Source: Prorocentrum cordatum (Eukaryota). Taken from it: a stretch of 64,000 bases of DNA. This document shows, one piece after another, positions 22,213-58,569 of this stretch. The position numbers and the translations under genes are program-made. Every line of letters begins with the position of its first letter. The first letter of the stretch is position 1. Below the pieces are notes generated by a model that was not told the origin of the DNA, searched no databases, and was given only the letters and a program-made list of their open reading frames with translations. The stretch covers positions 1 through 64,000 of the forward strand of contig CAUYUJ010000312.1 in NCBI GenBank assembly GCA_963575745.1. Direction: 5' to 3'.

Positions 22213-22392
22213 ATGCCGGCGGCGGCGGGGCCCTACGGCAGGTGGGTGTCGCAGGGGCCCGCGGTGCACGAGTCGGGGCCGCAGCCGCCGCCGCTGGAGG
22301 CCGTCCGGCTGCGGCTCTTCTGCGTGCCGCCGGCGGGCATGGGCGGGCAGGCCTACCACGGCTGGACCAGGCGCCTGCCAGAGGGCGTGGAG
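22213..22392 (+). CDS. Type II thioesterase (GrsT/RifR-like alpha/beta hydrolase), exon 1 (MPAAAG...RLRLFCVPPAGMGGQAYHGWTRRLPEGVE)
   Basis: RLFCVPPAGMGGQAYHGW matches the TEII N-terminal motif (RLFC.P.AGG....F..W...LP..IEV). ATG is in a GCC-ATG context, codons are GC3-rich, and the exon ends GAG|GC (phase 0). An upstream AG|G at 22153-22155 could be the trans- or cis-splice acceptor, so the start codon is tentative. Confidence 0.88.
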
Positions 22393-25911: not shown

Positions 25912-25968
25912 GCCCTTCGTGCTCTTCGGCCACTCGTTCGGCGCGTGGGTGGCGTACGAGATGCTCAG
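25912..25968 (+). CDS. Thioesterase exon 3 carrying the catalytic Ser (PFVLFGHSFGAWVAYEML-R)
   Basis: CAG|G acceptor, AG|GT donor, phase 2 to 2. GxSxG nucleophile elbow in the canonical P(F/Y)..FGHS.GA..AYE context. Confidence 0.93.
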
Positions 25969-26079
25969 GTCCGAGGCGGGGAGATGTCCATGACCACCGC
26001 TTGGGGGATCGAACTTCAGAGACCTCGGCAGGCGGTGGACAGGGGTACATTGGGGCCACCCTGGGGCCAACACGCACAC

Positions 26080-27310: not shown

Positions 27311-27346
<36 letters not shown>

Positions 27347-27355
27347 CTCGTCGTC

Positions 27356-27395
<40 letters not shown>

Positions 27396-27540
27396 TCGTC
27401 GTCGTCGTCGTCATCGTCGTCGTCGCCGTCGTCATCGTCGTCATCGTCGTCGTCGCCGCCGCCGCCGCCGGCGTCGTCGCCGCCGCAGCCGTCGTCGTCG
27501 TGGTCGTCGTCGTCGTCGTCGCCGTCGTCGTAGTCGTCGC

Positions 27541-27595
<55 letters not shown>

Positions 27596-28260
27596 TCTGG
27601 GACCATACCATCTGGGGGGGGGGTGGGGCGAGGAATCCTGGGACCATACCATCTGGGGGGGGGGGTCGTGAACCCTCGACCCTGGATCATATATGTGTAT
27701 GCGTACATGTATGTGTATAGCGACATACATACAGTGTGTAATGTATGTATAGAATTGTGTGTACATGTATATCTATATGTAGATGTATTTGTGTATATGT
27801 TTTTGCATCGATATCTGAATGTGTAGATGCTATGTATATTAGTGTGACTTTGTGTATGCATATTTATATATTTGCATCTATATAGCTGGGTAGATGCATG
27901 CACGCACGCATGCATGCATGCATGTATGTATACCTACATACATCTATGTATGTAGGTATACACGTGTAGACATTTTCATGCATGTATGTATGTATGCATG
28001 CATGCATGCATGTATATATGTATGCATGTATGCATGTATGCATTCATGTATGTATGCATGCATGCATGTATGCATGTGTGTAGGCATGTATGCATGTCTG
28101 CATGTATGCTTGTAGGTAGATATGTAGGTAGACATGTATGTATGTATGTATACATATATGTATGTATATGTATGTATGTATGTATGCATGGATGGATGCA
28201 TGCATGCATGCATGCATGCATGCATGCATGCATATAGATCTATACATGCTTTTCATAGAT
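26080..28260. repeat. (TA)n/(TATG)n/(CATG)n low-complexity region with nested GGTGCCC, ATAGCCCT and (GTC)n arrays
   Basis: Direct inspection; the (GTC)n block lies inside an element with TCCAGGG / CCCTGGA inverted ends (~27078-27687). Confidence 0.9.
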
Positions 28261-28551
28261 CTATCTCCACCGCCCGCCGGGGTCTCAGGACGTCGGCGCC
28301 CCAGGCGGTGGATCCCCCAGCACCGCACGGGGTGCTCTAAGCTAGCGCTGTCTTCTCGGCTTCCCCTCCTTCCTCCCTCCTCCCTCCTCCCTCCGCCCTC
28401 TCCCCCTCCCTCCCTCCTCCCCTCCCTCCCTCCCTCCCTCCCTCCCTCCTCCCCCTCCTCCTCCCTCCCTCTCCTCCTCCTCCTCCTCCTCCTCTCCTCC
28501 TCCTCCTCCTCCTCCTCCTCCTACCGCCTCCTCCACCTCCTCCTCCTCCTC

Positions 28552-31500: not shown

Positions 31501-31984
31501 CGCGGACGAGCCGCTGGCCACCGTTGCTGCAGCGCTGAAGGTGAGCGCTCGGAGCGACACCGCCGAGAGCGGCACATCGAGAGTCGGCGCAAGGCGCCAG
31601 GTGAATGATCCTGTTCCCGTCTCCTTCCTTCGGCCGCCGCAACACCAGCCATTTTCATTCCAAAGTGGTCGGTTTCTGCCCGCTTCTCCGCCGACTTCGG
31701 CCCCTCCCTCCATTCATTTCCCGAGCAGCGTGCAGCATAATATCCAGGAGCGACGCAAGTTAGCATCAGCTGATTTATCACGCTTTTCGAAACTTAGCCT
31801 GACCGAGCAAATCAAATTTCTCGAGTCAAGCCGCAGATGGTAGAGCGAAGACAATTCGGGGCTCGCATAGGGGAGGACACGTTCTAATTTCGTATCGTGC
31901 GCGCACTGCAGGTCGTACATATCGCATGCTTGCTTTTGATATGTTTCAGCGGTTGCACTCATAAATTTGAGGCCCAATGCAGAA
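28552..31984 (+). mobile_element. Degenerate 5'-truncated non-LTR retrotransposon (RT, C2H2 zinc fingers, downstream second ORF) in thioesterase intron 3
   Basis: RT motifs in order: DMSNAFGS (28558), GAFMGDTPAALFF (~28720), IYADD (28987-29001). Then, across frameshifts, C2H2-like WRCELL…FATRRALLAHQRFQKDAGH and CPL…ALQAHLLEQH. Both ends abut (CCT)n. Confidence 0.82.
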
Positions 31985-32280
31985 CCTCCTCCTCCTCCTC
32001 CTCCTCCTCCTCCTCCTCCCCCTTCCTTCTCCCCCTTCCTCCTCCTCCTCCTCCTCCTCCTCCTCCTCCTCCTCCTCCCTCCTCGCCTCCTCCTCCTCCT
32101 CCTCTCCTCCTCCTCCTCTCCTCCTCCTCTCCTCCTCCTCCTCCTCCTCCTCCTCCTCCTCCTCATCCTCCCTCCTCCTCCTCCCTCCTCCTCCCTCCTC
32201 CTCTCCTCCTCCTCCTCCTCCTCCTCCTCCTCCTCTTCCTCCTCCATTCCAGGAGAACTAAACTCCCCGCCTCGCACCAG

Positions 32281-32370
32281 GGAGCTGGCCCGGCGCGCGG
32301 AGCACGGGTGGCCCCTGCCGCTCAAGCTCTACGTCTCGGCCTGCCGGCCGCCGCACCTCTCCGACGTCCG
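32281..32370 (+). CDS. Thioesterase exon 4 (ELARRAEHGWPLPLKLYVSACRPPHLSDV-R)
   Basis: CAG|G acceptor, CG|GC donor, phase 2 to 2. Matches the TEII P..L.VSA...P motif. Confidence 0.88.
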
Positions 32371-43300: not shown

Positions 43301-45419
43301 TTCATCTTTGAACCTGCGCCGGCGGCTCATCGCCAAAGCAGGGGGCGCGGGAATTCCGCCCGAGGCTCTGTTGAGGCGCGCTGTCGTTCCAGTCAGTCAG
43401 ACGGTGGTCGACAAGGGGGGGTCGCCATGGCGCGCGTGGAGCGGGGCCGCGCAATCCGCGCCGACGATATCTTCCGCGCGAGGAAGGGGCGTCTCCCAAC
43501 TGTCGAGTGTTCCGTCTGCAGGGCGCAGAGCCTGAAGCCCATGAAACAGCACTGCGCGCGTGGCGGCGTGGATCTAAGCCGAGGGCGCAGTCTCCTCTAT
43601 CTCGGTGAGACGGAAGGCATGGCGCTTAGGAAGCGCTCGCACAATGGCGCGCTGAGACAGCGCGCCCCCCTCGAACCGAGCGGGCGCGGGAGATGGCGCT
43701 ATCGGGGCGGGGCCGTTCAGCTGGCAAGGGGGGGTGGGGGGGCGCAGTTAATGGTCTTTCACGCATCGAGTTGATGTGTCTGTCGAGGCGGGCCTCTGCT
43801 GGGATCGAACGAGTAGTGGCGCCCAGAGAGATGGATTCGCGCCCGCGTGTGATCGGCGTTGCCGCGAACGGGGCCGCCGCGCCCCCCGTTGCGCAGTCTG
43901 TCAGGCAACGGGGGTCTTCGCCGCGGTGCCTGGGGGGCCGCGTCTGGCGCATTGACGCGGCCGCTCTTGGCGCGCGCCTGGCAGGTCTTCGCGCGAAGAG
44001 TTCCGTCAGGGACGTCGGCTTCAGCTCGGGGCGGGGCGGCCGCGGCGACTCTTCGGGGGTAGCTGCGTCGCGAGATGGTGGCGTGTGACAGCTCGCCTAG
44101 AGTTCCCAGCGGGCCCGTGGTATTGCGAGCGCCGTGCCCGTCGTCCACCCTGGTTTGCGCGCAGCCTGCCCGCTCTGGGTTGCGCTTGAAGGCTTGCGCG
44201 CTAGCCAGTCGAATGCGGGCTGTCCTCGAGATGTGCAAACACGACTCTGGCCGCTGTGTCTTCGCGTGTCGAGGTTGCGCAGATATTGGCAGTGTCTATT
44301 GCCTTTCTTACGTCGGCTTCACGACAACCCCGTGGCTGTTCTGTCCCGGTGCGATGTCGCCCTGGCTCCCGATGGAGACGCTCGGAGGGTTCAGCTCCGC
44401 AGCGTGGGTGACTGGTTTGTCTTCGGGTCTCACTGCAGTATCTGCGCGGACTTGGCCACGGCCGAACAAATCATTCTGGAGTTCTGGAGGTCGCCGACGT
44501 GTCCGAATGGGTCGGGGTGCTCAGCGAGCCTCGGAATCCAGATGACGAGTCCACATATGATGGACGATGCGACGCACCCGCGCTCTCGGCGGCCAGGCGC
44601 GGGGTCGGTGCCGCGGTGGCCCCGATCGCTTTGGGCAACTGGACTTGCTGGGGCTACTGCAGCCGTTGCGTCGCCTTGGCGGAGGCTGCCATGGCGCGAC
44701 AGGGCGGTGCGCGGTGGTTGCGGCCCCTGCGATGGTTGCGGCCCCGCGCCAGGGCCGCGGCTGCCAGCAGGGCCGCCCGTTTTTCCATGAACAAGTTATG
44801 GCAGTGGCGGCAGCGACGACGAGGGCGCTGGGAGCTCTGCGGCCGATTCGGAAACCCATCTCGTCGACGCGCTCGGCGGCGATGATAACCATGGCGAGGG
44901 CGGTCGCGGTGAAGACTCGGGCGCGAGCTCTGGCGGCGATGCCGCTGCGGGCGGCGGCGTGGCAGTCGCCGCTGGCGCTGCGCGCGCGGGCGGGGGGCGT
45001 GGGAGATGGAGGTGTGCGCCCGGCGGGGATGCGGCAGGCGGCCGCCGTGCTGGAAGCCTGGCCGGGCAAGACGGCGGGGGCGACGCTGGCGGTCCAGGGC
45101 CTTCCAGCGTTCCGTTGGGAGCTCATCCAGCGGAGGCCCTGGCGGGCCGCCGCCCCTTCCCCTCCAGGGCCCCGTCCTGGAGGCAGCGGCGGGCCTGTCC
45201 GACCGGTGCCGCCTGGCCCGCCGGCCGCTGTCTTGGTTCATTCTATGCTGCAAAAAGGAGGGTGCACTCACGGTGTCGGTCCTCGGACGTCGGTCGTCGG
45301 TCGTCGGTCATCGGTCGTCGGTCGTCTGTCGTCGTCGTCGTCGTCTTCGTCGTCGGTCGTCGGTCGTCGGTCGTCGGGCGTCGGTCGTCGGCCGTCGGTC
45401 GTCTGTTGTCGTCCTTGAG

Positions 45420-45524
45420 GCACGACCCGGACGCCCTGAACCCTGCCATCGGCTCCCTCGGTGAGGCGGACTTCTGGGAGGCGTTCGAGGCGCGGTACGG
45501 CTGCAACCCCGACCTGGCGTCGCC
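45420..45524 (+). CDS. Thioesterase exon 5 (HDPDALNPAIGSLGEADFWEAFEARYGCNPDLAS-P), lid region
   Basis: GAG|G acceptor, CC|GT donor at 45525 (alternative GC donor at 45517). GC3-rich island among repeats; phases are compatible with exons 4 and 6. Confidence 0.8.
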
Positions 45525-47593
45525 GTGTCCGCCCCAGCCGGGCCGCGGGGCCGCCTTCCTCCCTGTTCCCCTCCTCGTCCTCCCCCCTCGCCTTCCCTCC
45601 TCCTCCTCCCTCTTCCTCCCTCTCCTGTTCCTCCCTCCTCATCCTCTCTTCTACTGCTCACTCCTTTTCTTCTTCTCTCTCCTCTCCATTATCCTCCTTC
45701 TCGCCCTCCTCCTCGTCCTCGTCGTCGTCCTCCTCCTCCTTCGGCTTCTCTTCGGTGCCGCCCGATGGGGGCAATTCCCTGCGGTGTTTGCCGCTGCGGG
45801 CCCGAATGGGTTTCTTCCCACTGTGAGGGTGGTGGCGCGGAGTCTTCGGGATAGGGCGTTTGACGCCTCGCAGGATCTTCGAAGTTGGGACCAAGTGAGT
45901 CTGCTTGTCGCCCCGCAGCACGTTTTTTCCGACAGGCCTCCGCGTTTCGCGGGTCGTAGGACGCAAATCTTTCTCCTCAGTGAAGCTGGAGGGCGCGACC
46001 TGTTTTCACACGCGAGGTTGAGCAATGTGCACTGCAACCTCGTGCCAGCGCGCACGTAAAATATGAACTTCATGCTCACGTCCTCCTCCACTCAGATTTA
46101 TCTCTTTCCCACCTTGCCAAAGCTTCGGGCTGCGTGCAGATAGTCCTACCAGATACCAGCTAGTTCCCGCTGGCCTCAACAGGCCCCCGGAGTAGTCCAG
46201 GGCGTTCTCGACACCCCAACCCTGGGCGAAGCGCCCCAGGGGCGCCGCCGGAGGCGGTTCCAGGGTCGTGTGATCCTCAGTCTTACCATGTCCTCTACCT
46301 CTTCCTTCCACTAGGATGTAATTCCTCTGATGTTGAATTCTGAGTCGGCGCTGGTACATCCCATGGTCGACGGCTTACCTAATGCGGCTACGTCCCAGTT
46401 AATGTGGCTTGATCCCGCTAAATCCGGCTTAATCATCCAGCTTCATCTCGGGTTTAATCTGACTTAATCCTGCTCATTGGCCCTAGAGTCTTGCTGAATA
46501 GCATTCGCTCGTTCTGACGAAGACCTCATTCTCCCAATGTTTTCCTGGTTTTCCCAGGCGGGGCTAGGACGAGGATGAATCCGTTCCAGAACGTTCCGGA
46601 ACGTTCTCAGAGCGTCCCAGAACGTTCTGAGAAGCCTGCGACGCCCGACGTTTTCCAGAGCCGCCAGATCTCAGAGATTCTCGATCTATCCTCACCCGAA
46701 TTCATCCTCGTCATGGCTTCGTCGTAGGCTCAGGGGGGACGCATCGACCCCCAAGGACAGAGGGGGGATATCGTGGCGTCCGGCTCCCATCAGCCCACAA
46801 GGTGCGTGAGCGAAAGAGATGTGAGCGAACGCGTGCCCAGCATTGTGACCGAGAAGGCAGTGTGACCGGAGCAGAGAGCACGAGACGAAGCCGGTGGCTT
46901 CGTCTCCTGTTCTCTGCGCCTACACCGCCTCGCCTTCCCCTCCCTTCCCTCGCCTGTCCGTCGGCGCGCTGCCCGCGCCCGCCCGGGCGGCCTGCTGCCG
47001 CAGCGCTCCTCCGGGGTCGCCTGCCCGATCGAGCTCTCCTTCCGGAGGCTGATAGGCCTCCGACCCTGACGCGTCGATGAGCGAAGTGGCCGTTCTCGGT
47101 TCGCGGGGGGGGGCGTCGCGGCCGCCGCCGTTTTCTCGGGTCCAGGTCCGTCGGTTTCGGCCCCGGGCTGTTTTCACTGAAGGGAGGTTTACCAGAGGGA
47201 GGTTAGTGCACCGCCGATTCTTCCCATCATCCGGGAGACGTGGAGCTCCTCCCCCCTCCTCGCCTTCCCGCCCTTCTCCCCCTGAGATGCGGGCGTTACC
47301 ACTTCTTCACACCGGGTGTGTTTTCGCCCGGTTCCTGGACCCAGGGCCACCGTCGAAAAGTGCCACGGAAGGGTGGGGTCTGGAGCTCTGGTCGTGACTT
47401 TTTCTGATGTTGCAGTTCTTTCACAAGGCCGGATTTCACAGGACCCTCGGACCTCACGCATCTTGGCCACGAAGTCGAGGCGGACCTAGCCGTTGCGATG
47501 ACTGTCCCCCCCCCCCCCCCCTCTCGTGAAGGCCCAAATCCAGGCCTTCCGACTCGGGCACATTGGGTCGGAGGAGCGCGCCACCAGAAGCAT

Positions 47594-47659
47594 TCCGTAG
47601 CCATTATGGCTCAAGCCATTTGACTCAAGCCATTCGGGCCGAATCCATCCTGGCTTAAT
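47594..47659 (+). other. Genomic dinoflagellate spliced leader (DinoSL) plus three tandem relic SLs
   Basis: 47594-47615 TCCGTAGCCATTATGGCTCAAG has 1 mismatch to DCCGTAGCCATTTTGGCTCAAG. It is followed by CCATTTGACTCAAG, CCATTCGGGCCGAAT and CCATCCTGGCTTAAT, decayed copies of the 15-nt relic unit CCATTTTGGCTCAAG. The stack ends ~30 nt before an ATG. Confidence 0.93.
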
Positions 47660-47688
47660 CAGCGCTTACGTCCTGCCGTGCTGCACCG

Positions 47689-49147
47689 ATGATGCGCTGC
47701 CAGGGGCTTGCCGCAGGCTGCATCGGCACATACGTTGCCATGGATTTCCAGAGGTGGAGGGCGCATGAGAGGCGAAGAGGGCGGCGCGACGAGATACAGC
47801 AGGCTCTGTGGTACAGGAAGGCAGAGCTCTTGGAGCATGGGGCCCAACAGTATACACCACCACCATTTTCATCATGCCCTCCCTCCTCCAGGAAAGAGGA
47901 GAGGAGGATGAGGGTGGAGGAGGGAGGAGGAATCGACGCGGTGGTGGTGTATATTCTCCTCCAGGAAAGGGGAGAGGAAGAGGAGGGTGGAGGAGGGAGG
48001 AGGAATCGACGTGGTGGTGGTGTAGATTCTTGGGGCCCGCGGGAAGCACTGGCACGACTTCAAGACAGAGATGCAGCGGCAGGGGGCGATGCAGCTCGCC
48101 ACCGACTCCACGAAGCTGGTGCTGAGCGTGATTCCGGGTGCCGCGGTGCTGGGGGAGACCGCGGACACCGTGAATGATGCGGCCAACCTGCACGATCTGT
48201 ACGAACTGGTGAGCGAGATGAAGGATGTTTCCGTTCTGCACTGTGACGAAGAAGCAGGGCTCATGGATGTTCTGGCGAGGAACGATTCTGGAAGGCGGGC
48301 AATCCAGAGCAAGTTGGAAATTGCGCAGTTGGAGAAGGAGCTGTCGATACTGTCATCCGACTTCTGGTCTGGGCACCCACACTTGGAGTCAGGGTGGATA
48401 TGGCACAAACCGTTGACGTATTGCAGACCTTTGTTCAGATTAATACAGCCTTTCATGACCGAGGTGTCTGGCATTTGCAGCGCTGCTCCGCAGGAGTCTG
48501 ATAGATATGCAAAGGTTTTCGCTCTCGTGGACAAGGACTCAGACGGTTCAATCAACAAGGCTGAATTCAAGAGAGCGTTGTTAGCGTTGGATTCTATAGA
48601 TGGAGAGTGGAGAGATTTGCTTCAAGGAGATCTTACATCATTTTTTCTTTGGGCTGATGCAGATGGCGACGGCAAGATTGAAGCGAACGATTTTATCCTT
48701 TGGGTCCAAACCACAAGAGCGCTCATAGCATGTTTCAAAGCGATGGACCGTAATGGTGATGGATTGATCGATGCGGCTGAATTCAAGGAAGCCGTGCACA
48801 GGTTGTCTGGAAGCTTGCAACAGATCAGAGCTATCGGTGCCGAGTCGGGACAACGTAACCACTCTGAGGTGGAGGCAGAGTTCAACGACATCGATCGGAA
48901 CAAGGACGGCCGAATCAGTCTTCCAGAATTCGTTGGGTGGATGCACAAGTCCTCTCCAGAGAACGGCCTTCGCGCCGTCCTGATGCGTGTCGTCAATATG
49001 AGTATGGCCCACACCGTGAGCTTTCAAAGTGTAGGATCCCAGGGTCTGCAAGGCCTGAAGGGTCAGATCGGCTATTTGAGCGAGGCAAGCGTGGCAGGTG
49101 TGCAAGACGCGAAGCGGCGTGTCAGCAGTTTTTTTTTCCCGTCTTGA
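47689..49147 (+). CDS. Intronless EF-hand Ca2+-binding protein retrogene (four EF-hands); 421 aa after removing a 193-nt insertion, uninterrupted part 48071-49147 (358 aa); possibly a pseudogene
   Basis: Four canonical loops: DKDSDGSINKAE, DADGDGKIEAND, DRNGDGLIDAAE, DRNKDGRISLPE. No introns, preceded by SL relics. Frames of ORFs 47689 and 48071 join (…LLEHGA-RGKHWHDFKTE-MQRQG…) when the insertion is excised. Confidence 0.88.
47846..48030. mobile_element. MITE-like TIR element inside the EF-hand ORF
   Basis: Flanked by direct repeat TGGGGCCC (47838-47845 and 48031-48038). Termini (CC)AACAGTATACACCACCACC and GGTGGTGGTGTAGATTCT(TGG) are inverted repeats. Internal ~75-bp tandem duplication. The TSD/TIR boundary is ambiguous (3, 5 or 7 bp). 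Confidence 0.85.
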
Positions 49148-49769
49148 AGATAGGACGCCACGTCCGTCCTCCTGTAAACTTTGGGATCTGCAGTACCCAT
49201 CGACGGGCCAGAGAGGCCGTCATCATCTTGGCCCCCTGTCGGCTCAGGCTCTGCCAGGGTTGATGCCTTCGGAGCCGCATGGGGGCCTTTCTGTTGAGGC
49301 GTCTGGAGATGTCTTGAGAAGGTCCTGGCTCTGCTTTTTCAACCCTCGCTGCTTTCCCTAGCTCTTGCGTTCTGGATGCGGATGTTTCGTCCTCGAACCT
49401 GTTGTGTTCTTCCTTTCTGTGTGGTGGCTTCCGCATTTCGACCTCTTCGGCCATACTCGAGGACGCCGGCGGCGCATCACCGGCCGCTCCCTGGGAGTTT
49501 GCCGAAGTGGTGCGCAGCATCGAAAGTCGTGACGCGGCGCGTATGCCAGCTATCAAATGGCCGTCGCCCCATCCCGCGACCGTGCTTGGGTTTTGGGTCG
49601 AGTCCTCATGGACGCTTCTTGGGGTCTCTCGAGAGGGCTCTCGGGGGCCTCTGCGGGGAGTTTAGTGGCCTCTTGGGGGCCTCCTGGGGGCTTCTTGGGA
49701 GCCTCTTGGGGCCCTCTTCGGGGCTCTTGGGGGCCTCTTGGGGCCTCTTGGGAGCCTCCTGGGGGCCTC

Positions 49770-50275
49770 GTGCGAAGTGCGTCCCAATGGGTGCGTGCGA
49801 AGCACATCCCAAAGGGTGCGCGTACTACACGTGTCCCAGCGGGTGCGTGCCGGAGCACGTCCCGCAGGGTGCGCATGTACTATACTGTACGTGTCCCAAT
49901 GGGTGCGTGCGAAGCACGGCCCAAGGGGTGCGCGTACTACGCGTGTCCCAGTGGGTGCGTGCAGGAGCACGTCCCAGAGGGTGCGCGTGTACTATACCGT
50001 GCGTGTCCCAGTGGGTGCGTGCGCAGCACGACCCAAAGGGTGCGCGTACTACACGTGTCTCAGTGGGTGCCAGGCGGAGCACGTCCCAGAGGGTGCGCGT
50101 GTACTATACAGTGCATGTCCAAAGCACGTCCCAAAAGGTGCGCGTACTACACGTGTCCCAGTGGCTGCGTGCCGGAGCACGTCCCAGAGGGTGCGCGTGT
50201 ACTAAACCGTACGTGTCCCCATGGGTGCGTGCAAAACACGACCCAAAGGGTGCGCGGTTTACACGTGTCCCAGTG
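49770..50275. repeat. ~52/59-bp tandem repeat (GTGTCCCAGTGGGTGCGTGC…GCACGTCCCAGAGGGTGCGCGT)
   Basis: About nine imperfect units directly visible. Confidence 0.85.
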
Positions 50276-52284
50276 GCTCCCATCAGGAGGGGTCCCCGCT
50301 CGAGATTGCCTCGTGTGTCACTCACAGACGAGGCCCCAGCTGGAGACTTCTAGCATCTTCAGGCCTCAGGAGCCCAAAAGTGACGACGTTTACAGAATTC
50401 GCATGGCCGCGCTCGGATTACCAAGCGCGTGCCCCATGGGGAAGGGGCTCCCGCCTGAGATTTCCTCGCAATTCACTCACAGGCGAGGCTCCCACCTTAG
50501 AATTCCTCCAAATGCAGGCCTGAGGAACCCAAGTTGAGGATGACCCGCTCGGATTGCCAACATGAAGTGTGGGACCCATAGGGAGGGGGCTACCGCCTGA
50601 GACTTTCTCACAATTCACTCACAAACGAGGCTGCTGCCTGATACTTCCTCCATATTGAGGCTTCAGGAGCCCAGAAGTGACGACAGTTACAGGGTTGACG
50701 ATGATCGCTCGGACTACCAACATGAAGTGCGGGACCCAAAGGGGGGTCAGCCAGAGCGCCCGATCTTGCAGGATCCTGCAAGAACAGAGTCGCATTGACC
50801 CAGGTTTGGGTGCAGGATCCTGCAGGATCTTGCAGGATCCTTCGCATTGCACCCAGATTTGGGTGCAGGATCTTACAGGATCTTGCAGGATTCTGCAAGG
50901 CCTGGCTGACCCAGTGTTGGATTGACCTGGGTCAGACGATCCCCGAACATGATTGTATTTGGTTGTTGCATGTTATGGGCGCGCTCCGCGTTCGTATCGA
51001 CTGCGTTAGCCACTGCAGGTGATGCGCACCACGTACGTTTCACAGCTTTGCTGCCCCGGTCTTCCCCCTCGTCCTCTGGGTGCCCGTCGCACTCTGTCTC
51101 CCCTCGCGTGCTCTCAGTCTGATCCACATTGACAGTGGTAGCGGTGTTTCAATCGCTACGGCTGCGCACGTGTACGACGTCAGTCGGATGATCGCGTTGT
51201 CTGCCTTCGCCTCGTGCTGCTTGCTGAAAACACGCTTTCGGCGCTGCGCGGCGCTCGAGGAAACGGGGGGGAGGTCGCCTCGTCAATCTCGGCCCCCCTT
51301 ATTGGCCGCCCCCCCAGAGCAGCTGTGCTCACGTGCTCTGTTAGGCTGAGCACTGGGGAGTCATCGTCGCCTTCAGTGCTCCACCCTTGGCGGTGCCTGC
51401 GATCCAGGTTTCCCCTCGACGATTCGGTGGCCGGGGTTCAAGGGCGAGCCACGGATCTAGGTCTCGATTCAAGTCTTTCGCCTCTTTTCCTGTGCCCCCC
51501 CCCCATCCGCAGCCCATGGTAGTTTGCGCGTGCTCGCGCAATTCCCTCTCCCCTTCCCCAGGTGCCCGCGGCGAGCCCAGCCGCCGTAGAAGCGCAGCAC
51601 TCTGGCTGGCGAGGCTTTGAGCACCGCAGGCCTTCCCGCGTGGCACCTCTCGCGCCCGCTTGTTGAGGAGCTCTGGTGAAGCTGGTTTGCTGGGCCGTCT
51701 TGTGGCTGCCTCGTGCCCCCGCCGGACAGTCTTGGGGTCCCTTGGGGCCCTCTTGGGTCATCTTTGGGCCCCTCGGCTCTCGTGGGCCGTCTTGGAGTTG
51801 TCTTGGCCGTCTTGGAGCCCTCTTGCCAGACAGCACATGGCATTCGACCACGCCTTGACGTACCACGGGGGCACGGGGGCGGACACATGGGGGGGACGTC
51901 TACCAGCCACGTCGCCGATCCTGGCCAGGCCGATCCTGAGCCCAGCATCGGTGCATTCGCATCCCCACAGCCAGGTCCGGAGGGCGTGGACACGGAGTCG
52001 GGGATCGCCAGGATCGGTGAAGTGGAGGAGGAGGAGGAGGAGGAGGAGGAGGAGGAGGAAGAGGAGGAGGAGGAGGAGGAGGAGGAGGAGGAGGAGGAGG
52101 AGGAGGAGGAGGGAGGGAGGGGGAGGGGGGAGGGGAGGGGGAGGGGGAGGGGGAGGGGGGAGGGGGAGAGTTGACGTCCCCAGGGCAAGCCTTTGAAAGC
52201 GGGAAGCGCTTCCCGATGTGGTAGCCTCGGGTTTCGCGTCTCCTCGGGGGGGGGCGCCGGGCTGCGCCGGCTCTTGCAGCCAAG

Positions 52285-52372
52285 GCTCATCAAGGGGATG
52301 GTGCGCAAGCTCCTCCAGGCCGACTTTGGCCTGCTGGAGTCGTACGTCCCGAGCAGCCTGGAGCCGCTGGAG
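52285..52372 (+). CDS. Thioesterase exon 6 (LIKGMVRKLLQADFGLLESYVPSSLEPLE)
   Basis: AAG|G acceptor (alternative CAG|C start at 52280), GAG|GT donor. LLQADFGLLESY matches the TEII L(R/Q)AD..L.E.Y motif. Confidence 0.88.
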
Positions 52373-53050
52373 GTGGGAGGAGGAGGAGGAAGAGGAGCAG
52401 GAGGAGGCGGCGGATGAGGAGGGGGATACTAGCAAGAAGAAGACGAATACGACTCACAGTAATGAGCATAATACTGATACCAATAATAATATTGGTAGTC
52501 GTACCAATAGATGCGGTGCTAATACTATCACTACTACTAATACGGATATGAATAATACTCGTCTACAACAACTAAGATGGGCAATCATAGCAATACTAAT
52601 AAAAAAGTGCACATACGAGTAAAACCATTGATAATAGTAAGCAGAGTAATACGAGCAATACTAAGACTACTAAGGACAACACGAATACGAATACGACAAC
52701 ACATGATATGATTCAGAATCGTGACATTCATATTGCTATTATTGAACTACGAGCATTTAGAATCATACTATCCAGAATATTAGGTTTACTAACACTACGA
52801 ATGCGACTTTTACTACTTAGTATGAATAACAATAAGAATGACACTGAGCATGAGGATGATGACTAGGAGGAGGAGGAGGAGGAGGAGAAAGGGGATAAGG
52901 AGAAGGAGGATGAGGAGGAACAAGTGGAAGAGGAGGAGGAGGATGAGGAGGACGAGGAGCAGGAATAAGAGAATGTCAGAGTGAGGGGGCCGAACGGTCA
53001 TTCACTGTCCCTGGGTGCGTGGCTGATGTGGAATTCCGCGGTGCGGATTC

Positions 53051-53102
<52 letters not shown>

Positions 53103-53213
53103 GTTTGTTGTTTGTTGTTTGTTGTTTGTTGTTTGTTGTTTGTTGTTTGTTGTTTGTTGTTTGTTGTTTGTTGTTTGTTGTTTGTTGTTTGTTGTTGTTG
53201 TTGTTTGTGTTGA

Positions 53214-53273
<60 letters not shown>

Positions 53274-53975
53274 GTTGTCGTCCTCCCACCCGCAACCCGC
53301 CCCGCGACCCACCCGCGACCCACCCCGCGACCCACCCCGCGACCCACCCGCGACCCACCCGCGACCCACCCGCGACCCACCCCGCGACCCACCCCGCGAC
53401 CCACCCCGCGACCCACCCCGCGACCCAACCCGCGACCCACCCCGCGACCCCCCCGCGGCCCACCCCGCGACCCACCCGCGACCCACCCGCGACCCACCCG
53501 CGACCCACCCGCGACCCACCCGCGACCTACCCCGCGACCCACCCGCGACCCACCTTCGACCCAAACCACGTTCAAGGTACAAACCACAATTTTCGGCGCC
53601 TGCGGCGGGCTTTTTTGCATTCCTTCCAAGTGGAGAGCCCGCGACACATCCCGTGACCAACTCGCGACCAACCCGCGACCCAAACCACGTTCAGGGTACA
53701 AACCACATTTTTCGGCGCCTGCGGCGGGCATATTTTGCATTCGTTTCAGGTGGAGAGCCCGCGGCCCACCCGCGACCACGTTCAGGGTACAAACCACATT
53801 TTCGGCGCCTGCGGCGGGCATCCTTTGCATTCGTTCCCTGTGGAGAACCCGCGGCCCACCCGCGACCCAAACCTCGTTCCGTGTACGAGCCAATTTTTTT
53901 GGCGCTTGCGGCGGGCTGCTTTTGCATTCCTTCCAGGTGGAGGTGGAGAGCCCGCGACCCACCCGCGACCTAAAC
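53051..53975. repeat. (GTT)n microsatellite, then 11-12-bp CCCACCC(C)GCGA array, then ~105-120-bp tandem repeat
   Basis: Direct inspection. Confidence 0.9.
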
Positions 53976-54754
53976 CACGTTCACTGAACAAACCAATGCC
54001 GCACAAGCGCGGCGGCGGATTCTTGCATGCCGTCTGAGCCCGCAAGGACCTCTTCACGCCCCGCACATCCACGCCAGCCCGTCCAGCAACTTTGCCCTGG
54101 CGAGTTGCCTTGATCAGAGAAGGCGGGGAGCATAAAGTGGAAAAAAGGATTGCGTTGCAGTTATCTTGGGAAAGGAGGGGGAGGCAGGATGAGTAAACAG
54201 GGGACGAGGAGAACGTGGAAGAAGAGAGGATGTAAGGAGAACGTGGAGAAAGAAAAGGAGGAGGAACAGGAGGACGAGGGGGAGGAGGGGGAGGAGGGGG
54301 AGGAGGAGGACGAGGAGGGGGAGGATGGGGAGGATGATGATGATGATGACGACAATGGGAGGACGATGATGGAGGCCGATGAGGGGGAGGACGACAATGG
54401 GAGGACCATGATGAAAAGACGAGGGGGGGAGAGGGAGGACGAGGAAGAAGAGGAGGAGGAGGAGGAGGACGAGGTGGAGGAGGAGGATGACGATGACGAT
54501 GAGGACGAGGAAGAGGAGGAGGAGAAGGAGGAGGAAGAGGAGGAGAAGGAGGAGGAGGAGGAGGTGGAGGAGAGCGCCATCGACAAGGAAGGTGGGGGCC
54601 ACGAGGTCCGCCGGCTCGACGACGCCCGTGTCGCCCGCGCCCGCCCCCTCACTCTTATCCGCAATTGCGGGGTTCTACGTAATATAATCGAATACGCAAT
54701 GGAGCTCCAGATCGTGACAGGGAGACGACTGCGAGCAGGAAAAAAAGGAGGAAC

Positions 54755-54919: not shown

Positions 54920-55019
54920 NNNNNNNNNNNNNNNNNNNNNNNNNNNNNNNNNNNNNNNNNNNNNNNNNNNNNNNNNNNNNNNNNNNNNNNNNNNNNNNNN
55001 NNNNNNNNNNNNNNNNNNN
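54920..55019. other. Assembly gap (100 N) inside a (GGA)n tract in thioesterase intron 6
   Basis: Run of N. Exons 6 and 7 join in frame across it, which supports the scaffolding. Confidence 0.99.
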
Positions 55020-55660: not shown

Positions 55661-57780
55661 CTCCTGGACTGTAGACTCTGGTGGCATCGGAGGCCCCGAG
55701 AGAGCTGCCATCCCCGCCCAGCTGTTGTTGCCGCCGGGGGGGAAGGGGTGGGATCAAACTAGTTACCTATAGCGTAAATAGCGGAAAAGAAACCCGGCGG
55801 ACAGAGGCAAAACTCTCCCGGGGGCGGTGCAGTTGGGCCCCTCCAAAGAAGGAGGTCGTCGTCGCCGTCGCCCTCCTCCTCCTCCTCCTCCTCCTCCTCC
55901 TCCTCCTCTCTTCCTCCTCCTCCTCCTCCTCCTCCTCTTCCTCTTCCTTCTCCTCCTCCTCCTCTTCCTCCCCCTCCTCCTTCTCCTCCTCCTCTTCCTG
56001 CTCCTCCTTCTCTTTCTCCTCCTCCTCCTTCACCCCACCACCTCCTCCTTTTTCTCCTCCTCCTCCTGCTCCTCGCGACACGTCGCGACCATGTTTGTAC
56101 AGTGTCCGTGGTCGTTCTTGTACGGCGTGCGTCTGGAAGCAGTCTGTCATGGCGGAGTGTCTGGCACTTCTACTTGACATAGAGAAGGCCTCCGAGAACG
56201 TGATGTCTTACATTTTGGCTCCAGGGGCTCTCGAGTTGGGCTTCCATCCTGTTCTTGTACGATTTTTGGTCGAGCTGTATCTTGGCCCGCGCTTCGTTTC
56301 CGATCAGGTCATTCCTGGAGGGGGCGCGCGGGCGACCCGCACCATCGTGGCGGGGCGTGCATTCGCAGACCTCCTGATGAGAGCAACGCTACTACGTGGC
56401 ACGGACCAGCAGGTAGAGAAGTGTTCCGTTATTCTTACTGCGGTTTAGTAGCCGATGATCCTTATTGTTTGCTTGTTGGAACTACTAAGTTTCTTCTTGA
56501 ACAGGCGCTAGGTGTCGCGTCGTCACTCCTGACCGCGTTGTCGGTGTTTGCTCAGCTGCCAGTTTCTGTGTAAGTCTGACACGTCTACGCAAGGCTGGGG
56601 CTTGCGTGGGGCGTCTTGTCCGTTCTGATATCCAGCCGGTTGCTTTTTCTGGGTCTGGAGTTAAGGTATGCATTTTCAGCAAATCCGGTCTGCTTATCGT
56701 GTCTCTATGTGTTCACGTTCTCATCGTTGTGTTACCATGGCCGTAACTATTGAACAGATCGTACATCCTGCGGTTCCTGCTCGTACTGATGTTGTTATTA
56801 CTTATCATGCTTCTTATGGGATTCCCTGGTGCCTCAGCACCTCGTGGACGAGGCTTTTCAACGGGCCATTGACAATATTGGTATAGCCACCTGCTGGGAC
56901 AGCCTTCGTGGCCCGGCGTCGTCTAATGTGGCTACACTCTTGCATCTTGGCTGGAGCTTCCAATCCACCACTCTCTGGCTTGCACATTGGTATTTCTGTC
57001 GTTTCCCCCCGCGTTGTCGAGAATATGGTGGCGTTGGACGCGGACGTATGGGGATGGCAGCAAACTGCCCGTCACCACCCCGCGCTGTCCCACCTCTCCG
57101 GTCCATTTCATTTACCACCACTTCGTACTATCGGCATGTCTGCGCCTGCGTGGGGGAGGCCTCAAGGTGTGGCACTCAGATCCGTCATCGGGGCCGTGCG
57201 TTTGGTTATCCCCTGTTCTTTGTGCGGGGCTACCCATGCTGATGACATTTCTGCTATGCGTCACCTTCTTTGGGATTGTGGTGGCACGCAGGCTGCTCGA
57301 CAAGGTTACGGTTTGCCAGCTCACGTGGAACATGTTCGAGCTCTCCTTCCTGATGATCCGCTCTGGTACCCCGCTTTGGTCCCTGATCCAGAGCGGTTGT
57401 ACTTCCAGCTATGGAGTTGGACATTTTGTGGTTCTTTTTCGGTGACCCGCAGGGTTTGCCTCTACTTGCGTCTCCTGTCTTTGGCGACGGTTCAGGTCTC
57501 TATGGCCCTTCACCGAGAGCATTGCGCTGCGGCTTCTCTGCGGTTGCTGTGGGGCCATCCGGCGGTGCGCGCGTCTCCGCCCACTGTGCTCACCCTGGTG
57601 CTTATTAGTGTCTGCCTTGTGCGGAAGCTTTGTCGTTGCTGGTCTTCCTGCTGCATGCGTTGCCAGATTCAAGCGGCATGTTTTGTACGTGTCTATTACA
57701 GCGACGGCCAGAGGGTGGTGGAATCTTGGCACGCCCCATCTTCTCATCTTGTCTCCGGTTGGAGCCCCCACTCGGGCATA

Positions 57781-58190
57781 CAGTCAACCGTGATGGTAAG
57801 GACGGAGCAGCTTTCCAAGGCCACCCTTGCATCCCTGCCCCTTCGGTATTCGGCATCCTTCGGCATCCTGCTGCGCTCCGCACGGAAAACGTTAACATGG
57901 CGTTCCAAGGTCCTTGCGTCCTTACCGCGCATCCTCACTTCGGACACTGGAACATGTACATTATCAGTGGCGGGCTGTTTTGCACTCCCAGGACTTCTTG
58001 AGGATCGGGGACGACGCTGGGGTGGTGTGTTGTATATTTGTTTCCCCGATGTCCCGGGGAAACAACGAAACATGTATACACCAGGGTCTTGTATACACCA
58101 GGATCCGCTCTCCAGGGCAAATTTCAATGCAGGGCCGGAAAAAGCGTCGGTGTATAGATATCGGCTCCCTATTGCTATCTTGGTCGAGTG
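57781..58190. mobile_element. 410-bp Tc1/mariner-type MITE inserted in the RNase H region of the LINE
   Basis: Imperfect ~27-bp TIRs (CAGTCAACCGTGATGGTAAG… vs reverse complement CACTCGACCAAGATAGCAAT…), flanked TA / TC. Removal restores PHSGI-WARINAKSADIGCDGVRVRKAKAH. Confidence 0.75.
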
Positions 58191-58569
58191 TCTGGGCTCG
58201 CATTAATGCGAAATCTGCCGACATCGGTTGCGATGGCGTTCGAGTTCGCAAGGCGAAGGCCCACCTCGCCGTGTCACTCCTTTGTCCAGGCCGCCTGGCC
58301 AACGACAGGGAGCGACCACGCAGGACGAAAACCCAAGAAACATGGGAAACTATTGGGAATCCTGTTATTTGTATCTATTCATTTGTGTGTCCCAGGGCCC
58401 CTTCATCATCACGTTGATGCAGCTGCTGTGGAACGTGTGAGCAGGTCGAGTATTGTAGTGGAGCGCGCAGGCAGACACATGGACTTTATAAGGTCTCGTG
58501 TTTTTTTTTGTCCGCGCCTCGACGAGGTTCCTCGCCCTCCCTGGGCCGTTGGCCCTCCTTTGTCTGCAC

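What the first reader, a model, noticed from the sequence alone, without database searches (positions are those of the whole stretch)
45525..52284. Gene within a gene: SL-headed EF-hand retrogene nested on the same strand in thioesterase intron 5
Seen: the retrogene lies between exons 5 and 6, co-oriented with the host, and uses visibly more A/T-ending codons than the host exons. No poly(A) tract or clear TSD was found. Inference: it could be expressed without its own promoter by trans-splicing out of the host pre-mRNA, since its SL supplies an AG acceptor. This would compete with or couple to cis-splicing of the thioesterase.
Basis: inference. Interest (0 to 1): 0.72.

Follow-up and report, generated by a model that had tools for sequence, protein, structure and literature searches.

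The report
Expressed retrogene nested in thioesterase intron
A calcium-binding-protein gene copied back from mRNA sits inside an intron of a thioesterase gene in a dinoflagellate and both genes are expressed, an arrangement that is common in these algae, although this copy has also gained an odd hairpin-shaped intron of its own.

Summary
Window 45525-52284 is exactly intron 5 (GT..AG, 6,760 nt) of a PF00975 thioesterase gene. Its exons match an NCBI protein annotated as Prorocentrum cordatum, and exons 5 and 6 are joined in contigs of 4 of 4 runs laid. Inside, on the same strand, a DinoSL relic (1 mismatch in 21) plus one or two truncated relics heads a four-EF-hand gene. GC3 is 0.64 against 0.98 in the host. 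No poly(A) tract or TSD was found.

Corrections:
- The gene is not silent: near-full-length transcript contigs occur in 4 of 4 runs.
- It is not intronless. A 211-nt hairpin element with 27-nt inverted arms, a 4-nt border repeat and no GY-AG border is absent from all transcripts. Its removal restores a 415-aa ORF that is colinear with a 41%-identical homologue.
- The best contig leaves the genome at the AG inside the relic SL, which fits trans-splicing there.

The precursor must therefore start upstream, in host-intron DNA. Whether it is the host pre-mRNA or an intron-internal start is unresolved, because only contigs and no DNA run were available.

Nested same-strand genes and SL-tagged retrogenes are already well documented in dinoflagellates. 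This is a new member of a known kind, with a noteworthy non-canonical introner-like intron.

The parts
45420..45524 (+). Host thioesterase exon 5 (…HDPDALNPAIGSLGEADFWEAFEARYGCNPDLASP)
   Evidence: tblastn of P0030 and the boundary fit. Contig pieces 45419-45524 occur in 4 of 4 runs.
45525..52284 (+). Host intron 5, 6,760 nt, GT..AG followed by G. It contains the nested gene.
   Evidence: Joint 45524->52285 in 4 of 4 runs. No significant inverted repeat at its ends: 130 of 200 shuffles did as well.
52285..52372 (+). Host thioesterase exon 6 (LIKGMVRKLLQADFGLLESYVPSSLEPLE)
   Evidence: Contig pieces 52285-52362 in 4 of 4 runs.
47505..47525 (+). Pyrimidine tract (T C16 TCTC), 74 nt upstream of the presumed trans-splice acceptor
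   Evidence: Read directly from the sequence. A role in trans-splicing is inference.
47594..47615 (+). Newest DinoSL relic, full length (TCCGTAGCCATTATGGCTCAAG; one T-to-A change in the TTTT box)
   Evidence: 1 mismatch in 21, and 0 of 100 shuffles matched.
47599..47600 (+). AG inside the relic SL, the presumed SL trans-splice acceptor of the present-day mRNA
   Evidence: The X1 contig (1,682 nt) aligns from 47599 with 0 other letters and has 5 unaligned letters beyond it. The letters themselves were not shown, so this is an inference.
47616..47644 (+). Older truncated relic CCATTTGACTCAAG (47616-47629), then a possible third, more decayed one (CCATTCGGGCCGAAT)
   Evidence: TRF 14-nt period, 2.5 copies, 90% matches at 47599-47634. 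Sequence. The third relic is a weak reading.
47689..47835 (+). Nested gene CDS part 1 (MMRCQGLAAGC…AELLE), 49 codons
   Evidence: 100% identical to the N-terminus of transcript-derived proteins P0027 and P0028. Conserved in homologue P0035.
47835..48045 (+). 211-nt introner-like element absent from all transcripts. The border is ambiguous over 4 nt (AGCA): the possible ends are AG..GA, GC..AA, CA..AG, AT..GC and TG..CA, none of them GY-AG. The coordinates given are the GC..AA placement.
   Evidence: Joint 47833->48045, 'both' = 4, in 4 of 4 runs. Its removal restores the ORF. P0035 aligns across the junction without a gap.
47839..47865 (+). Left inverted-repeat arm of the element. The right arm is 48012-48038. 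An internal 73-nt tandem duplication lies at 47883-48028.
   Evidence: the repeat finder: 27-nt arms, 85% complementary, and D1 2 x 73 nt at 93%. RNA fold -95.7 kcal/mol, z -3.24, with 2 of 200 shuffles as good.
48046..49147 (+). Nested gene CDS part 2, including the stop codon. EF-hand loops at 48530-48565, 48656-48691, 48746-48781 and 48893-48928.
49148..49503 (+). Proximal 3' UTR. Contigs end at 49442-49503. From 49457 on it is a dispersed repeat shared with other transcripts.
   Evidence: Contig pieces, and loose ends at 49457 in X1, X5 and X11.
49504..51039 (+). 1,536-nt repeat-rich segment (11-, 53- and 112-nt tandem arrays), skipped in the X9 contig only (ends GA..TT, no border repeat). 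It could be a strain indel or an unusual intron.
   Evidence: Joint 49503->51040 in 1 of 4 runs. X5 and X11 have contigs colinear across 51040. Arrays.
51040..51230 (+). Probable distal 3' UTR ending at a poly(A) site within GAAAAC
   Evidence: The X9 contig continues 51040-51230 and then has 21 A as a loose end. Separate contigs 50986-51203 (X5) and 51023-51219 (X11). The genome has only AAAA here. An AAAAG/C motif at dinoflagellate poly(A) sites is described in PMC2488372 (passages).
22213..22392 (+). Host exon 1 (start codon). Further host exons lie at 24912-25036, 25912-25968 (GHSFG), 32281-32370, from 55140, and about 60661 in one isoform. The host gene spans more than 38 kb of the window.
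   Evidence: Donors are GC, GC, GT, GC, GT, GT, all with AG|G acceptors, and each junction has 1-8 nt of repeated border sequence (2-9 equivalent placements).

Best explanation
This is a real, expressed nested gene. It is a DinoSL-tagged, repeatedly recycled retrogene encoding a 415-aa protein with a conserved N-terminal region and four canonical EF-hand Ca2+-binding loops. It lies in sense orientation inside the 6.76-kb GT-AG intron 5 of a type-II-thioesterase-like gene of a Prorocentrum cordatum-type dinoflagellate.

Shown:
- The host splices exon 5 to exon 6 across the nested gene.
- The nested gene yields an mRNA of about 1.65 kb or more that contains genome-encoded relic-SL sequence.
- That mRNA lacks a 211-nt hairpin element and keeps an ORF that evolves mostly by synonymous change.

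Inferred:
- The mRNA 5' end is made by SL trans-splicing at the AG inside the newest relic SL (47599/47600).
- The precursor therefore starts upstream of the relic, in host-intron DNA, and not at the relic's own 'TTTT' box.
- The 211-nt element is an introner-like insertion with a 4-nt border repeat and 27-nt inverted arms. It entered the coding sequence and is now removed as a non-canonical intron.
- Polyadenylation occurs downstream, probably at the GAAAAC at 51230.

The host polymerase must read through this sense-strand unit every time the host gene is transcribed. Host pre-mRNA is therefore the simplest source of at least part of the precursor; I put that at about 0.4. An intron-internal start is not excluded.
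For: - Intron 5 joint, GT..AG, in 4 of 4 runs.
- Host identity and thioesterase domain.
- DinoSL relic with 1 mismatch in 21 and 0 of 100 shuffles matching. Tandem truncated relics. The relic ends 74 nt before the ATG, inside the -50 to -100 range given for conserved relics in PMC6050394 (passages).
- Nested transcripts in 4 of 4 runs. The X1 contig covers 47599-47833 and 48045-49486 with 0 other letters over 1,677 nt, including the relic's T-to-A variant at 47606.
- Transcript-derived proteins P0027 (an MMETSP transcript by its source name) and P0028 are 100% identical to the two window ORF parts joined.
- Full-length homologue P0035 (41% identity, E 9e-101) aligns through the junction without a gap. 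The 211 nt are therefore an insertion into an older ORF.
- Between the window and the X9/X11 contigs, 7 of 9 CDS differences are synonymous. The binomial p is about 6e-4 against a 0.22 synonymous-site share.
- Inverted arms and fold of the element.
- Poly(A) loose end after 51230 in X9.
- No other protein above 44% identity was found in two large protein searches, and no NCBI gene model sits in the query's 90% cluster. This is weak support that this locus is the expressed one.
Against: - All four runs are assembled contigs. They cannot show transcript starts, strand or level. No DNA run of the organism was among the 24 runs offered.
- No whole genome is held. A second identical copy lacking the 211-nt element cannot be excluded. 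The genome paper reports 64.8% of P. cordatum genes as dispersed duplicates (PMC10666404, passages).
- The 5 contig letters beyond 47599 were not displayed, so trans-splicing at that AG is inferred from where the alignment stops.
- None of the five possible border placements of the 211-nt segment has the GT/GC/GA..AG ends used by annotated P. cordatum introns.
- The classical retroposition marks are absent: no poly(A) tract, no TSD and no identified parent.
- No listed contig links host exon or upstream intron sequence to the nested gene.
- Contig depths of nested against host are 238 vs 8.9 in X1, but 14.9 vs 23.9 in X9. Taken at face value this would not suggest tight coupling. The tool warns that these depths do not rank genes.
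Confidence: 0.7

Rival explanations
1. Strict form of the first reader's model. The nested gene has no start of its own. All of its mRNA is cut out of thioesterase pre-mRNA by SL trans-splicing at the relic AG plus polyadenylation. Each precursor then yields either thioesterase mRNA or EF-hand mRNA, as mutually exclusive outputs.
For: - Same strand, inside an intron that is demonstrably transcribed and spliced (4 of 4 runs).
- The mRNA contains relic sequence downstream of the AG, so the precursor starts upstream in intron DNA.
- A pyrimidine tract lies 74 nt upstream of the AG.
- No promoter-like feature could be assigned, though dinoflagellate promoters are undefined in any case.
Against: - No bridging or chimeric contig is listed.
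- Polycistronic expression is called rare in dinoflagellates in a 2024 review that cites Beauchemin et al. 2012 (PMC11453091, passages).
- In A. carterae, nested genes average 2.07 times the host FPKM with a wide spread (PMC12584245, passages).
- Here the contig depth ratios range from about 27:1 (X1) to 0.6:1 (X9). This is a poor measure by the tool's own warning.
Confidence: 0.3
2. Independent unit. Transcription of the nested gene starts within intron 5, somewhere between 45525 and about 47590. The host gene merely surrounds it, as for the many nested genes of dinoflagellates.
For: - Nested genes are common and differ in expression from their hosts: 25.2% of A. carterae genes (PMC12584245) and 6.5-8.4% of P. 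glacialis genes (PMC7245778), passages seen.
- The depth ratio varies across runs (weak).
Against: No start site or promoter motif can be shown. The relic's own TTTT box, proposed as a promoter in PMC6050394, is mutated to TTAT and lies downstream of the acceptor, so it cannot be the start.
Confidence: 0.4
3. The window copy is a disrupted, silent duplicate. The transcripts come from a near-identical copy elsewhere that never received the 211-nt insertion (nor, in the strain of X9, the 1,536-nt segment).
For: - No border placement gives a canonical splice pair.
- P. cordatum has many dispersed duplicates (PMC10666404, passages).
- No DNA run was available to test whether the joined form exists as DNA. 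Table 5b was not given.
Against: - The X1 contig has 0 differences in 1,677 nt, including the mutated relic and the older relics. The other copy would have to be an extremely recent duplicate.
- No second protein cluster above 44% identity was found in 5.8 billion or 1.84 billion proteins.
- The inverted-arm plus short border-repeat layout is the one described for introner elements that are spliced (PMC7789003, PMC10666404).
Confidence: 0.15
4. The 211-nt skip is an artefact: reverse transcriptase jumping across the hairpin between the AGCA repeats, or a mis-assembly.
For: Strong hairpin (z -3.24) and a 4-nt direct repeat at the borders, which is the classic setting for template switching.
Against: - The same junction appears in 4 of 4 runs from 4 studies, and no contig covers 47834-47964 in X1.
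- The junction restores, in frame, an N-terminal region that is conserved and colinear in a 41%-identical homologue. The element is therefore a true insertion, and the functional message must lack it.
Confidence: 0.03
5. Not a retrogene at all. The SL-like head arose by chance or is a fragment of an SL RNA gene.
For: No poly(A) remnant, TSD or parent gene. The gene has an intron.
Against: A 20-of-21 match, with 0 of 100 shuffles matching. It is followed in register by truncated copies starting exactly after the SL's internal AG, which is the signature of recycling. No Rfam family was found in 44000-54000. Intron-bearing SL-tagged retrogenes are accepted in the field (PMC6050394, passages).
Confidence: 0.03

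Closest known systems
DinoSL-tagged 'recycled' retrogenes of dinoflagellates (Slamovits & Keeling 2008 as cited in, and Song et al. 2017/2018 as read in, PMC6050394; survey in PMC12014239)
   Same: A genome-encoded full SL followed by truncated relics that begin after the SL's internal AG. Older relics are more decayed. The relic lies about 74 nt before the ATG. The gene is expressed. EF-hand domains are among the frequent retrogene domains, and Prorocentrum minimum is reported with 477 transcriptome retrogenes (PMC12014239, passages).
   Different: No parent gene, poly(A) remnant or TSD could be shown. It carries an intron with non-canonical borders. GC3 is 0.64, whereas the survey reports a high GC3 of about 75% for retrogenes and normal genes alike in the three other species analysed there.
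Nested genes in long introns of dinoflagellate genes (Polarella glacialis, PMC7245778; Amphidinium carterae, PMC12584245)
   Same: A complete gene inside an intron of a multi-exon host with short exons and long introns. Both genes have transcript support. Genes in these genomes, P. cordatum included, are mostly unidirectional (PMC10666404), so same-strand nesting is the default expectation.
   Different: Here the nested gene is additionally marked as a retrogene, and its trans-splice acceptor can be placed in the relic SL. Those papers, in the passages I saw, do not say where nested-gene precursors start.
Introner elements and non-canonical introns with inverted plus direct repeats (Amoebophrya, PMC7789003; searched for by the same pattern in P. 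cordatum, PMC10666404; Symbiodinium/Polarella introner-like elements with a 4-nt GHNN TSD, bioRxiv 10.1101/2020.10.14.339549)
   Same: Inverted repeats at both intron ends that can pair. A 3-5-nt direct repeat overlaps the borders, here AGCA or GCAY. Under the GHNN model the first repeat copy GCAT would supply a GC donor. The size is short, and removal is precise and restores the ORF.
   Different: Under the GHNN placement the 3' end is AA, not AG, and no placement gives GY-AG. The arms are 27 nt, longer than the 8-20 nt of the published pattern. Seven extra nucleotides separate the right arm from the border repeat. Membership of a multi-copy family was not shown.
Identically repeated intron boundaries (IRIB) of dinoflagellate introns (Crypthecodinium cohnii, PMC5032977)
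   Same: The same 2-9 nt at both intron borders, present once in the mRNA. Seen at all six host junctions fitted (1-8 nt of repeated border sequence) and at the 211-nt element (4 nt).
   Different: Published IRIBs contain GG or AGG. The 211-nt element's repeat, AGCA, does not.
SL-resolved operons of nematodes and polycistronic units of trypanosomes (recalled knowledge; the trypanosome comparison is also drawn in PMC2488372)
   Same: A downstream coding unit would be freed from a longer precursor by SL trans-splicing at an AG coupled to upstream polyadenylation.
   Different: Here the downstream unit lies inside an intron of the upstream gene, so the two outputs would exclude each other. A shared precursor has not been shown.

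Membership tests
DinoSL-tagged retrogene | DinoSL or its relic encoded in genomic DNA upstream of the coding sequence | tested here: met
   47595-47615, 1 mismatch in 21, sole hit in 64 kb, 0 of 100 shuffles matched. It ends 74 nt before the ATG at 47689.
DinoSL-tagged retrogene | Tandem truncated relics that start after the SL's internal AG (recycling) | tested here: met
   CCATTATGGCTCAAG then CCATTTGACTCAAG. TRF 14-nt unit x 2.5 at 90%. A third relic is doubtful.
DinoSL-tagged retrogene | Relic sequence present in the mature transcript behind a fresh SL | tested here: inconclusive
   The X1 contig contains the relic from 47599 with 0 mismatches plus 5 unaligned letters. The fresh SL itself was not seen.
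DinoSL-tagged retrogene | Classical retroposition marks: poly(A) remnant, target-site duplication, intron-bearing parent gene | tested here: not met
   No A-run of 5 or more in 47594-52284 and no shared word of 9 nt or more at the flanks. A parent could not be sought because no genome is held. The field does not require these marks (PMC6050394).
Nested (intronic) gene | Flanking host exons joined in transcripts across the nested gene | tested here: met
   Joint 45524->52285 in 4 of 4 runs.
Nested (intronic) gene | Nested gene has its own mature transcript | tested here: met
   Contigs of 1,614-1,867 nt in 4 of 4 runs. Proteins P0001, P0027 and P0028.
Introner-like element / non-canonical intron with IR + DR | Inverted repeats at both intron ends | tested here: met
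   Arms 47839-47865 and 48012-48038, 27 nt, 85% complementary. 0 of 200 shuffles reached the end-to-end match.
Introner-like element / non-canonical intron with IR + DR | 3-5-nt direct repeat overlapping the exon/intron borders | tested here: met
   4 nt (AGCA) fit either side of the joint in 4 of 4 runs ('both' = 4).
Introner-like element / non-canonical intron with IR + DR | Removed from RNA while present in the DNA of the same locus | tested here: inconclusive
   Absent from contigs in 4 of 4 runs and present in the window. No DNA run or genome was available to exclude an element-free copy.
Introner-like element / non-canonical intron with IR + DR | Multi-copy family in the genome | tested here: inconclusive
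   Within the window only low-complexity GGA-rich matches were found. Contigs with loose ends at 47982 and 48040, and extra depth in bin 47965-48199, hint at other copies.
Canonical dinoflagellate spliceosomal intron | GT/GC/GA donor and AG acceptor | tested here: not met
   The five possible placements give AG..GA, GC..AA, CA..AG, AT..GC and TG..CA. All six host introns fitted do have GY..AG|G.
Thioesterase (PF00975), host gene | Domain match above the curated cut-off and a GxSxG nucleophile | tested here: met
   P0033: E 6.7e-20, 72.7 bits against 26.4. GHSFG in exon 3. Other catalytic residues were not examined.
EF-hand Ca2+-binding protein, nested gene | Paired EF-hand motifs with canonical 12-residue loops | tested here: met
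   EF-hand_1 E 1.1e-25, 4 stretches. EF-hand_7 E 7.6e-24. Loops DKDSDGSINKAE, DADGDGKIEAND, DRNGDGLIDAAE and DRNKDGRISLPE. Ca2+ binding itself was not tested.

The most novel reading that the evidence does not exclude
The thioesterase gene and the nested EF-hand retrogene form one transcription unit with two mutually exclusive outputs. The retrogene survives without a promoter because the AG of its own relic SL lets the trans-splicing machinery cut it out of the host's intron 5, at the cost of the host mRNA. After landing there it also acquired a hairpin introner that is removed without GY-AG borders. That would mean core dinoflagellates, and not only the parasite Amoebophrya, can splice structure-defined non-canonical introns.
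Probability: 0.25. Interest if true: 0.6.

Novelty: new member of a known kind. Interest (0 to 1): 0.4.

Why it matters
How dinoflagellate genes get transcribed is still open: no promoters are defined, every mRNA is trans-spliced, and polycistrony is disputed. A sense-strand nested retrogene whose acceptor can be pinned to its relic SL, inside a host intron that is demonstrably spliced, is a clean single-locus test case. A few long reads or a nascent-RNA assay would show whether nested genes ride on host precursors.

The arrangement itself is not surprising. Nested genes make up 6.5-25% of genes in the two genomes where they were counted, genes are unidirectional, and SL-tagged retrogenes number in the hundreds per species.

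The more unusual item is the 211-nt hairpin element. It is precisely absent from the mRNA and has no GY-AG border. If it is truly spliced, it documents intron gain inside a retrogene and non-canonical, structure-associated intron removal in a free-living bloom-forming dinoflagellate. Gene-prediction pipelines restricted to GT/GC/GA-AG would miss such introns. No NCBI model of this gene was found in the query's protein cluster.

Tried and rejected
- Whole-genome search of the window's own assembly: none is held. Copy number, a parent gene and genome-wide orientation bias therefore could not be tested.
- Pfam on 126 + strand open frames of 38-62 kb, to locate host exons: no thioesterase hit, because the exons are too short. 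Solved instead through a protein search with the exon 5 stretch and tblastn.
- Pfam on 113 of the 165 long open frames of the whole window, both strands (52 left out to shorten the call, most of them overlapping or already scanned): no domain at E 0.001 or better except one sub-threshold holin hit. No reverse transcriptase or transposase lies next to the nested gene.
- Rfam over 44000-54000: nothing.
- Scan of metagenome contigs for DNA encoding P0027, in the hope of reading the mRNA's 5' SL and 3' end: 40 pattern matches, none a relative.
- The search of earlier findings by place, sequence and words: nothing.
- TSD and poly(A) search at either candidate 3' end (49.5 kb, 51.23 kb): nothing.
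- A second SL-like word at 56210-56224 (2 mismatches in 15) is at chance level: 47 of 100 shuffles give 2 or more matches, and it lacks the CCGTAG part.
- Parts of intron 5 without contig cover (45.6-46.5 kb, 49.8-50.5 kb, 51.3-51.7 kb) say nothing about transcription.
- Short contig pieces at 46655-46699 and in bin 47025-47259 look like repeats and were not used.
- Contig depths of nested against host were not used to rank expression.
- Treating 48071 as the start codon, as in the first ORF list, was dropped once the transcript-derived proteins showed the upstream 50 codons.
- My recollection that repeated intron borders were described in Amphidinium was wrong. The paper is on Crypthecodinium cohnii.

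Full report
**What is there**

The window is GC-rich dinoflagellate nuclear DNA. It is 340 aa, named by NCBI 'unnamed protein product [Prorocentrum cordatum]', and carries a precomputed PF00975. Its cluster holds four annotated isoforms and one 327-aa protein from an 1,105-nt Logan contig.

tblastn and a boundary fit place the exons on the + strand at 100% identity:
- 22213-22392
- 24912-25036
- 25912-25968 (GHSFG)
- 32281-32370
- 45420-45524
- 52285-52372
- from 55140 onward

The donors are GC, GC, GT, GC, GT, GT, and every acceptor is AG followed by G. Each junction has 1-8 nt of identical repeated border sequence (2-9 equivalent placements). Isoform P0033 scores PF00975 at E 6.7e-20.

**Transcript evidence for the host**

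The look-up of sequencing runs offered 24 runs, all kept as assembled contigs. The best held 0.81 of the sampled words, and none looked like a DNA run of the organism. I laid four runs from four studies (X1, X5, X9, X11) on 45380-52420.

In 4 of 4, a contig joins 45524 to 52285, skipping 6,760 nt with GT..AG ends. The exon 5 piece is preceded by a loose end that reads like the end of exon 4. Exons 5 and 6 are therefore in one transcript.

**The nested gene**

CCGTAGCCATTATGGCTCAAG at 47595-47615 differs from the DinoSL core at one position. It is the only hit in 64 kb, and no shuffle gave a hit. It is followed in register by CCATTTGACTCAAG and perhaps by a third, decayed copy. This is the layout expected when an already relic-bearing mRNA is copied back into the genome. 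The definition and the recycling logic are given in PMC6050394 and PMC7245778 (passages).

The first ORF list gave a 358-aa EF-hand ORF from 48071. A protein search then found a cluster of four transcript-derived proteins: P0001, P0028, P0029, and P0027, which its source names an MMETSP transcript. P0027 and P0028 are 100% identical to two window stretches joined: 47689/47692-47835 and 48046-49144. The true product has 415 aa, with four canonical EF-hand loops.

**Expression and processing**

In 4 of 4 runs a contig of 1,614-1,867 nt covers the gene and skips 211 nt. The joint is 47833->48045, and 4 nt (AGCA) fit either side.

The X1 contig matches the window with no other letter over 47599-47833 and 48045-49486. 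That span includes the relic's T-to-A change. The contig has 5 further letters beyond 47599 that do not lie on the genome. A fresh SL joined after the relic's internal AG (47599/47600) would match the genome only in that AG, and would mismatch in 4 of the next 5 letters. The alignment therefore stops where trans-splicing at that AG predicts. The letters themselves were not shown, so this is an inference.

Because genome-encoded relic sequence is in the mRNA, the precursor starts upstream of the relic. The relic's own TTTT box, proposed as a portable promoter in PMC6050394, is mutated here. It also lies downstream of the acceptor, so it cannot be the start.

At the 3' end, contigs stop at 49442-49503, inside a stretch from 49457 that many other contigs share. 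That stretch is a dispersed repeat. Only X9 goes on: it jumps from 49503 to 51040, runs to 51230 and then carries 21 A. X5 and X11 have separate contigs colinear with the window over 50986-51219.

The genome reads GAAAAC at 51230. This fits the AAAAG/C motif reported at dinoflagellate poly(A) sites (PMC2488372, passages). The unit therefore probably extends to 51230. The repeat-rich 1,536 nt in between would be either part of a long 3' UTR or a strain indel.

**The 211-nt segment**

The segment has 27-nt inverted arms (85% complementary) that begin right after the left border repeat. It also has an internal 73-nt duplication and a stable fold with z -3.24.

None of the five possible border placements gives GT/GC/GA..AG. 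Placed as GC..AA, it follows the Symbiodinium-type introner model, with a 4-nt GHNN target duplication whose first copy is the donor, except for the last base pair (bioRxiv 10.1101/2020.10.14.339549, passages).

The only full-length relative found among 1.84 billion representatives is P0035, at 41% identity and E 9e-101. It aligns straight through the junction (…LLEHWHDFK… against …LLEQFHDFK…). The segment is therefore an insertion into an older ORF, and the functional message must lack it. That rules out a reverse-transcription artefact as the main explanation.

Inverted repeats of 8-20 nt plus direct repeats of 3-5 nt at the borders of non-canonical introns are described for Amoebophrya (PMC7789003, passages). 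The same pattern was used to report introner elements in P. cordatum introns (PMC10666404, passages).

I could not show that the element-bearing copy is the transcribed one. No genome or DNA run was available. The zero-mismatch X1 contig, and the lack of any other close protein cluster, argue for it.

**Is the gene under constraint?**

Between the window and the X9/X11 contigs, 7 of 9 coding differences are synonymous. The share of synonymous sites is 0.22, which gives a binomial p of about 6e-4. The gene is a functional one, not a decaying copy.

Its GC3 is 0.639 (266 of 416), dipping to 0.40 in the EF-hand region. The host has 0.981 (211 of 215).

**Mechanism**

Shown:
- Both mRNAs exist.
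- The host splices across the nested gene.
- The nested mRNA starts in or at the relic SL and lacks the 211 nt.

Inferred:
- SL trans-splicing at 47600/47601.
- A precursor starting upstream in intron DNA.
- Polyadenylation at 51230.

Open: whether that precursor is the host pre-mRNA. The host polymerase must traverse a sense-strand acceptor and poly(A) site each time the host gene is transcribed, so some processing of host precursors into nested mRNA is the simplest expectation. On the other side, a review calls polycistronic expression rare in dinoflagellates (PMC11453091). Nested genes elsewhere differ widely from their hosts in expression (PMC12584245). No bridging contig was listed here.

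**Comparison and novelty**

- Nested genes: 25.2% of A. carterae genes and 6.5-8.4% of P. glacialis genes.
- Orientation: P. cordatum genes are mostly unidirectional and have long introns, 4.7 kb on average.
- Retrogenes: SL-tagged retrogenes, with introns and with EF-hands, are documented, including 477 in P. minimum transcriptomes.

My searches for a paper linking nested genes, SL relics and host precursors found none. These were word searches of open-access text only.

The finding is thus a well-resolved new member of known kinds. Its most unusual part is the non-GY-AG hairpin intron inside a retrogene.

Noticed in passing
window 25969-32280 (host intron 3): The first 17 nt of the intron (GTCCGAGGCGGGGAGAT) and the last 20 nt form a 15-of-17 inverted repeat starting at the very ends. 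0 of 200 shuffles did as well. This is the introner-element layout reported for P. cordatum introns. Introns 1, 2, 4 and 5 show nothing comparable, and intron 6 is borderline (9 of 200).
   Followed up: partly
window 49457-49550: Contigs from X1, X5 and X11 with unrelated upstream sequence all begin to match at 49457 (loose ends 'before' 49457). This is a short dispersed repeat shared by several transcripts, and it is where the nested-gene contigs break.
   Followed up: no
window 49504-51039: The X9 contig skips these 1,536 nt (ends GA..TT, no border repeat). The segment holds 11-, 53- and 112-nt tandem arrays (49638-50276) and 53-nt repeats at 50790-50891. It may be a strain-specific insertion in the 3' UTR or an unusual intron.
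   Followed up: partly
window 56887-58203 (+), in host intron 7: A 439-codon open frame without a Pfam hit even at E 1. The protein-atlas feature search gives only weak leads (0.83-0.81, under the 0.9 level) to reverse-transcriptase zinc-binding and RNase H clusters. It may be the tail of a degraded LINE-like element.
   Followed up: partly
window 22213-60700 (host gene): All six fitted host junctions have 1-8 nt of identical sequence at both intron borders (2-9 equivalent placements), as described for Crypthecodinium (PMC5032977). The four annotated isoforms differ by a 12-aa insert (RRRAGAAPGLGR, near 60661) and by alternative C-termini.
   Followed up: partly
window 48500-48800: Within the nested CDS, GC3 falls to 0.40 over the first EF-hand pair and is 0.78-0.88 in the first 100 codons. 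This is a strong internal composition gradient that I could not explain.
   Followed up: no
window 54920-55019: A 100-N assembly gap flanked by long GAG/GGA and CCT simple repeats, about 120 nt upstream of host exon 7.
   Followed up: no
window 45271-45411 and 52024-52168: Long simple repeats sit close to both ends of intron 5: (CGGTCGT)n just upstream of exon 5, and (GGAGGA)n then (GGGGA)n about 120 nt before exon 6. Read laying skipped these as repeats.
   Followed up: no
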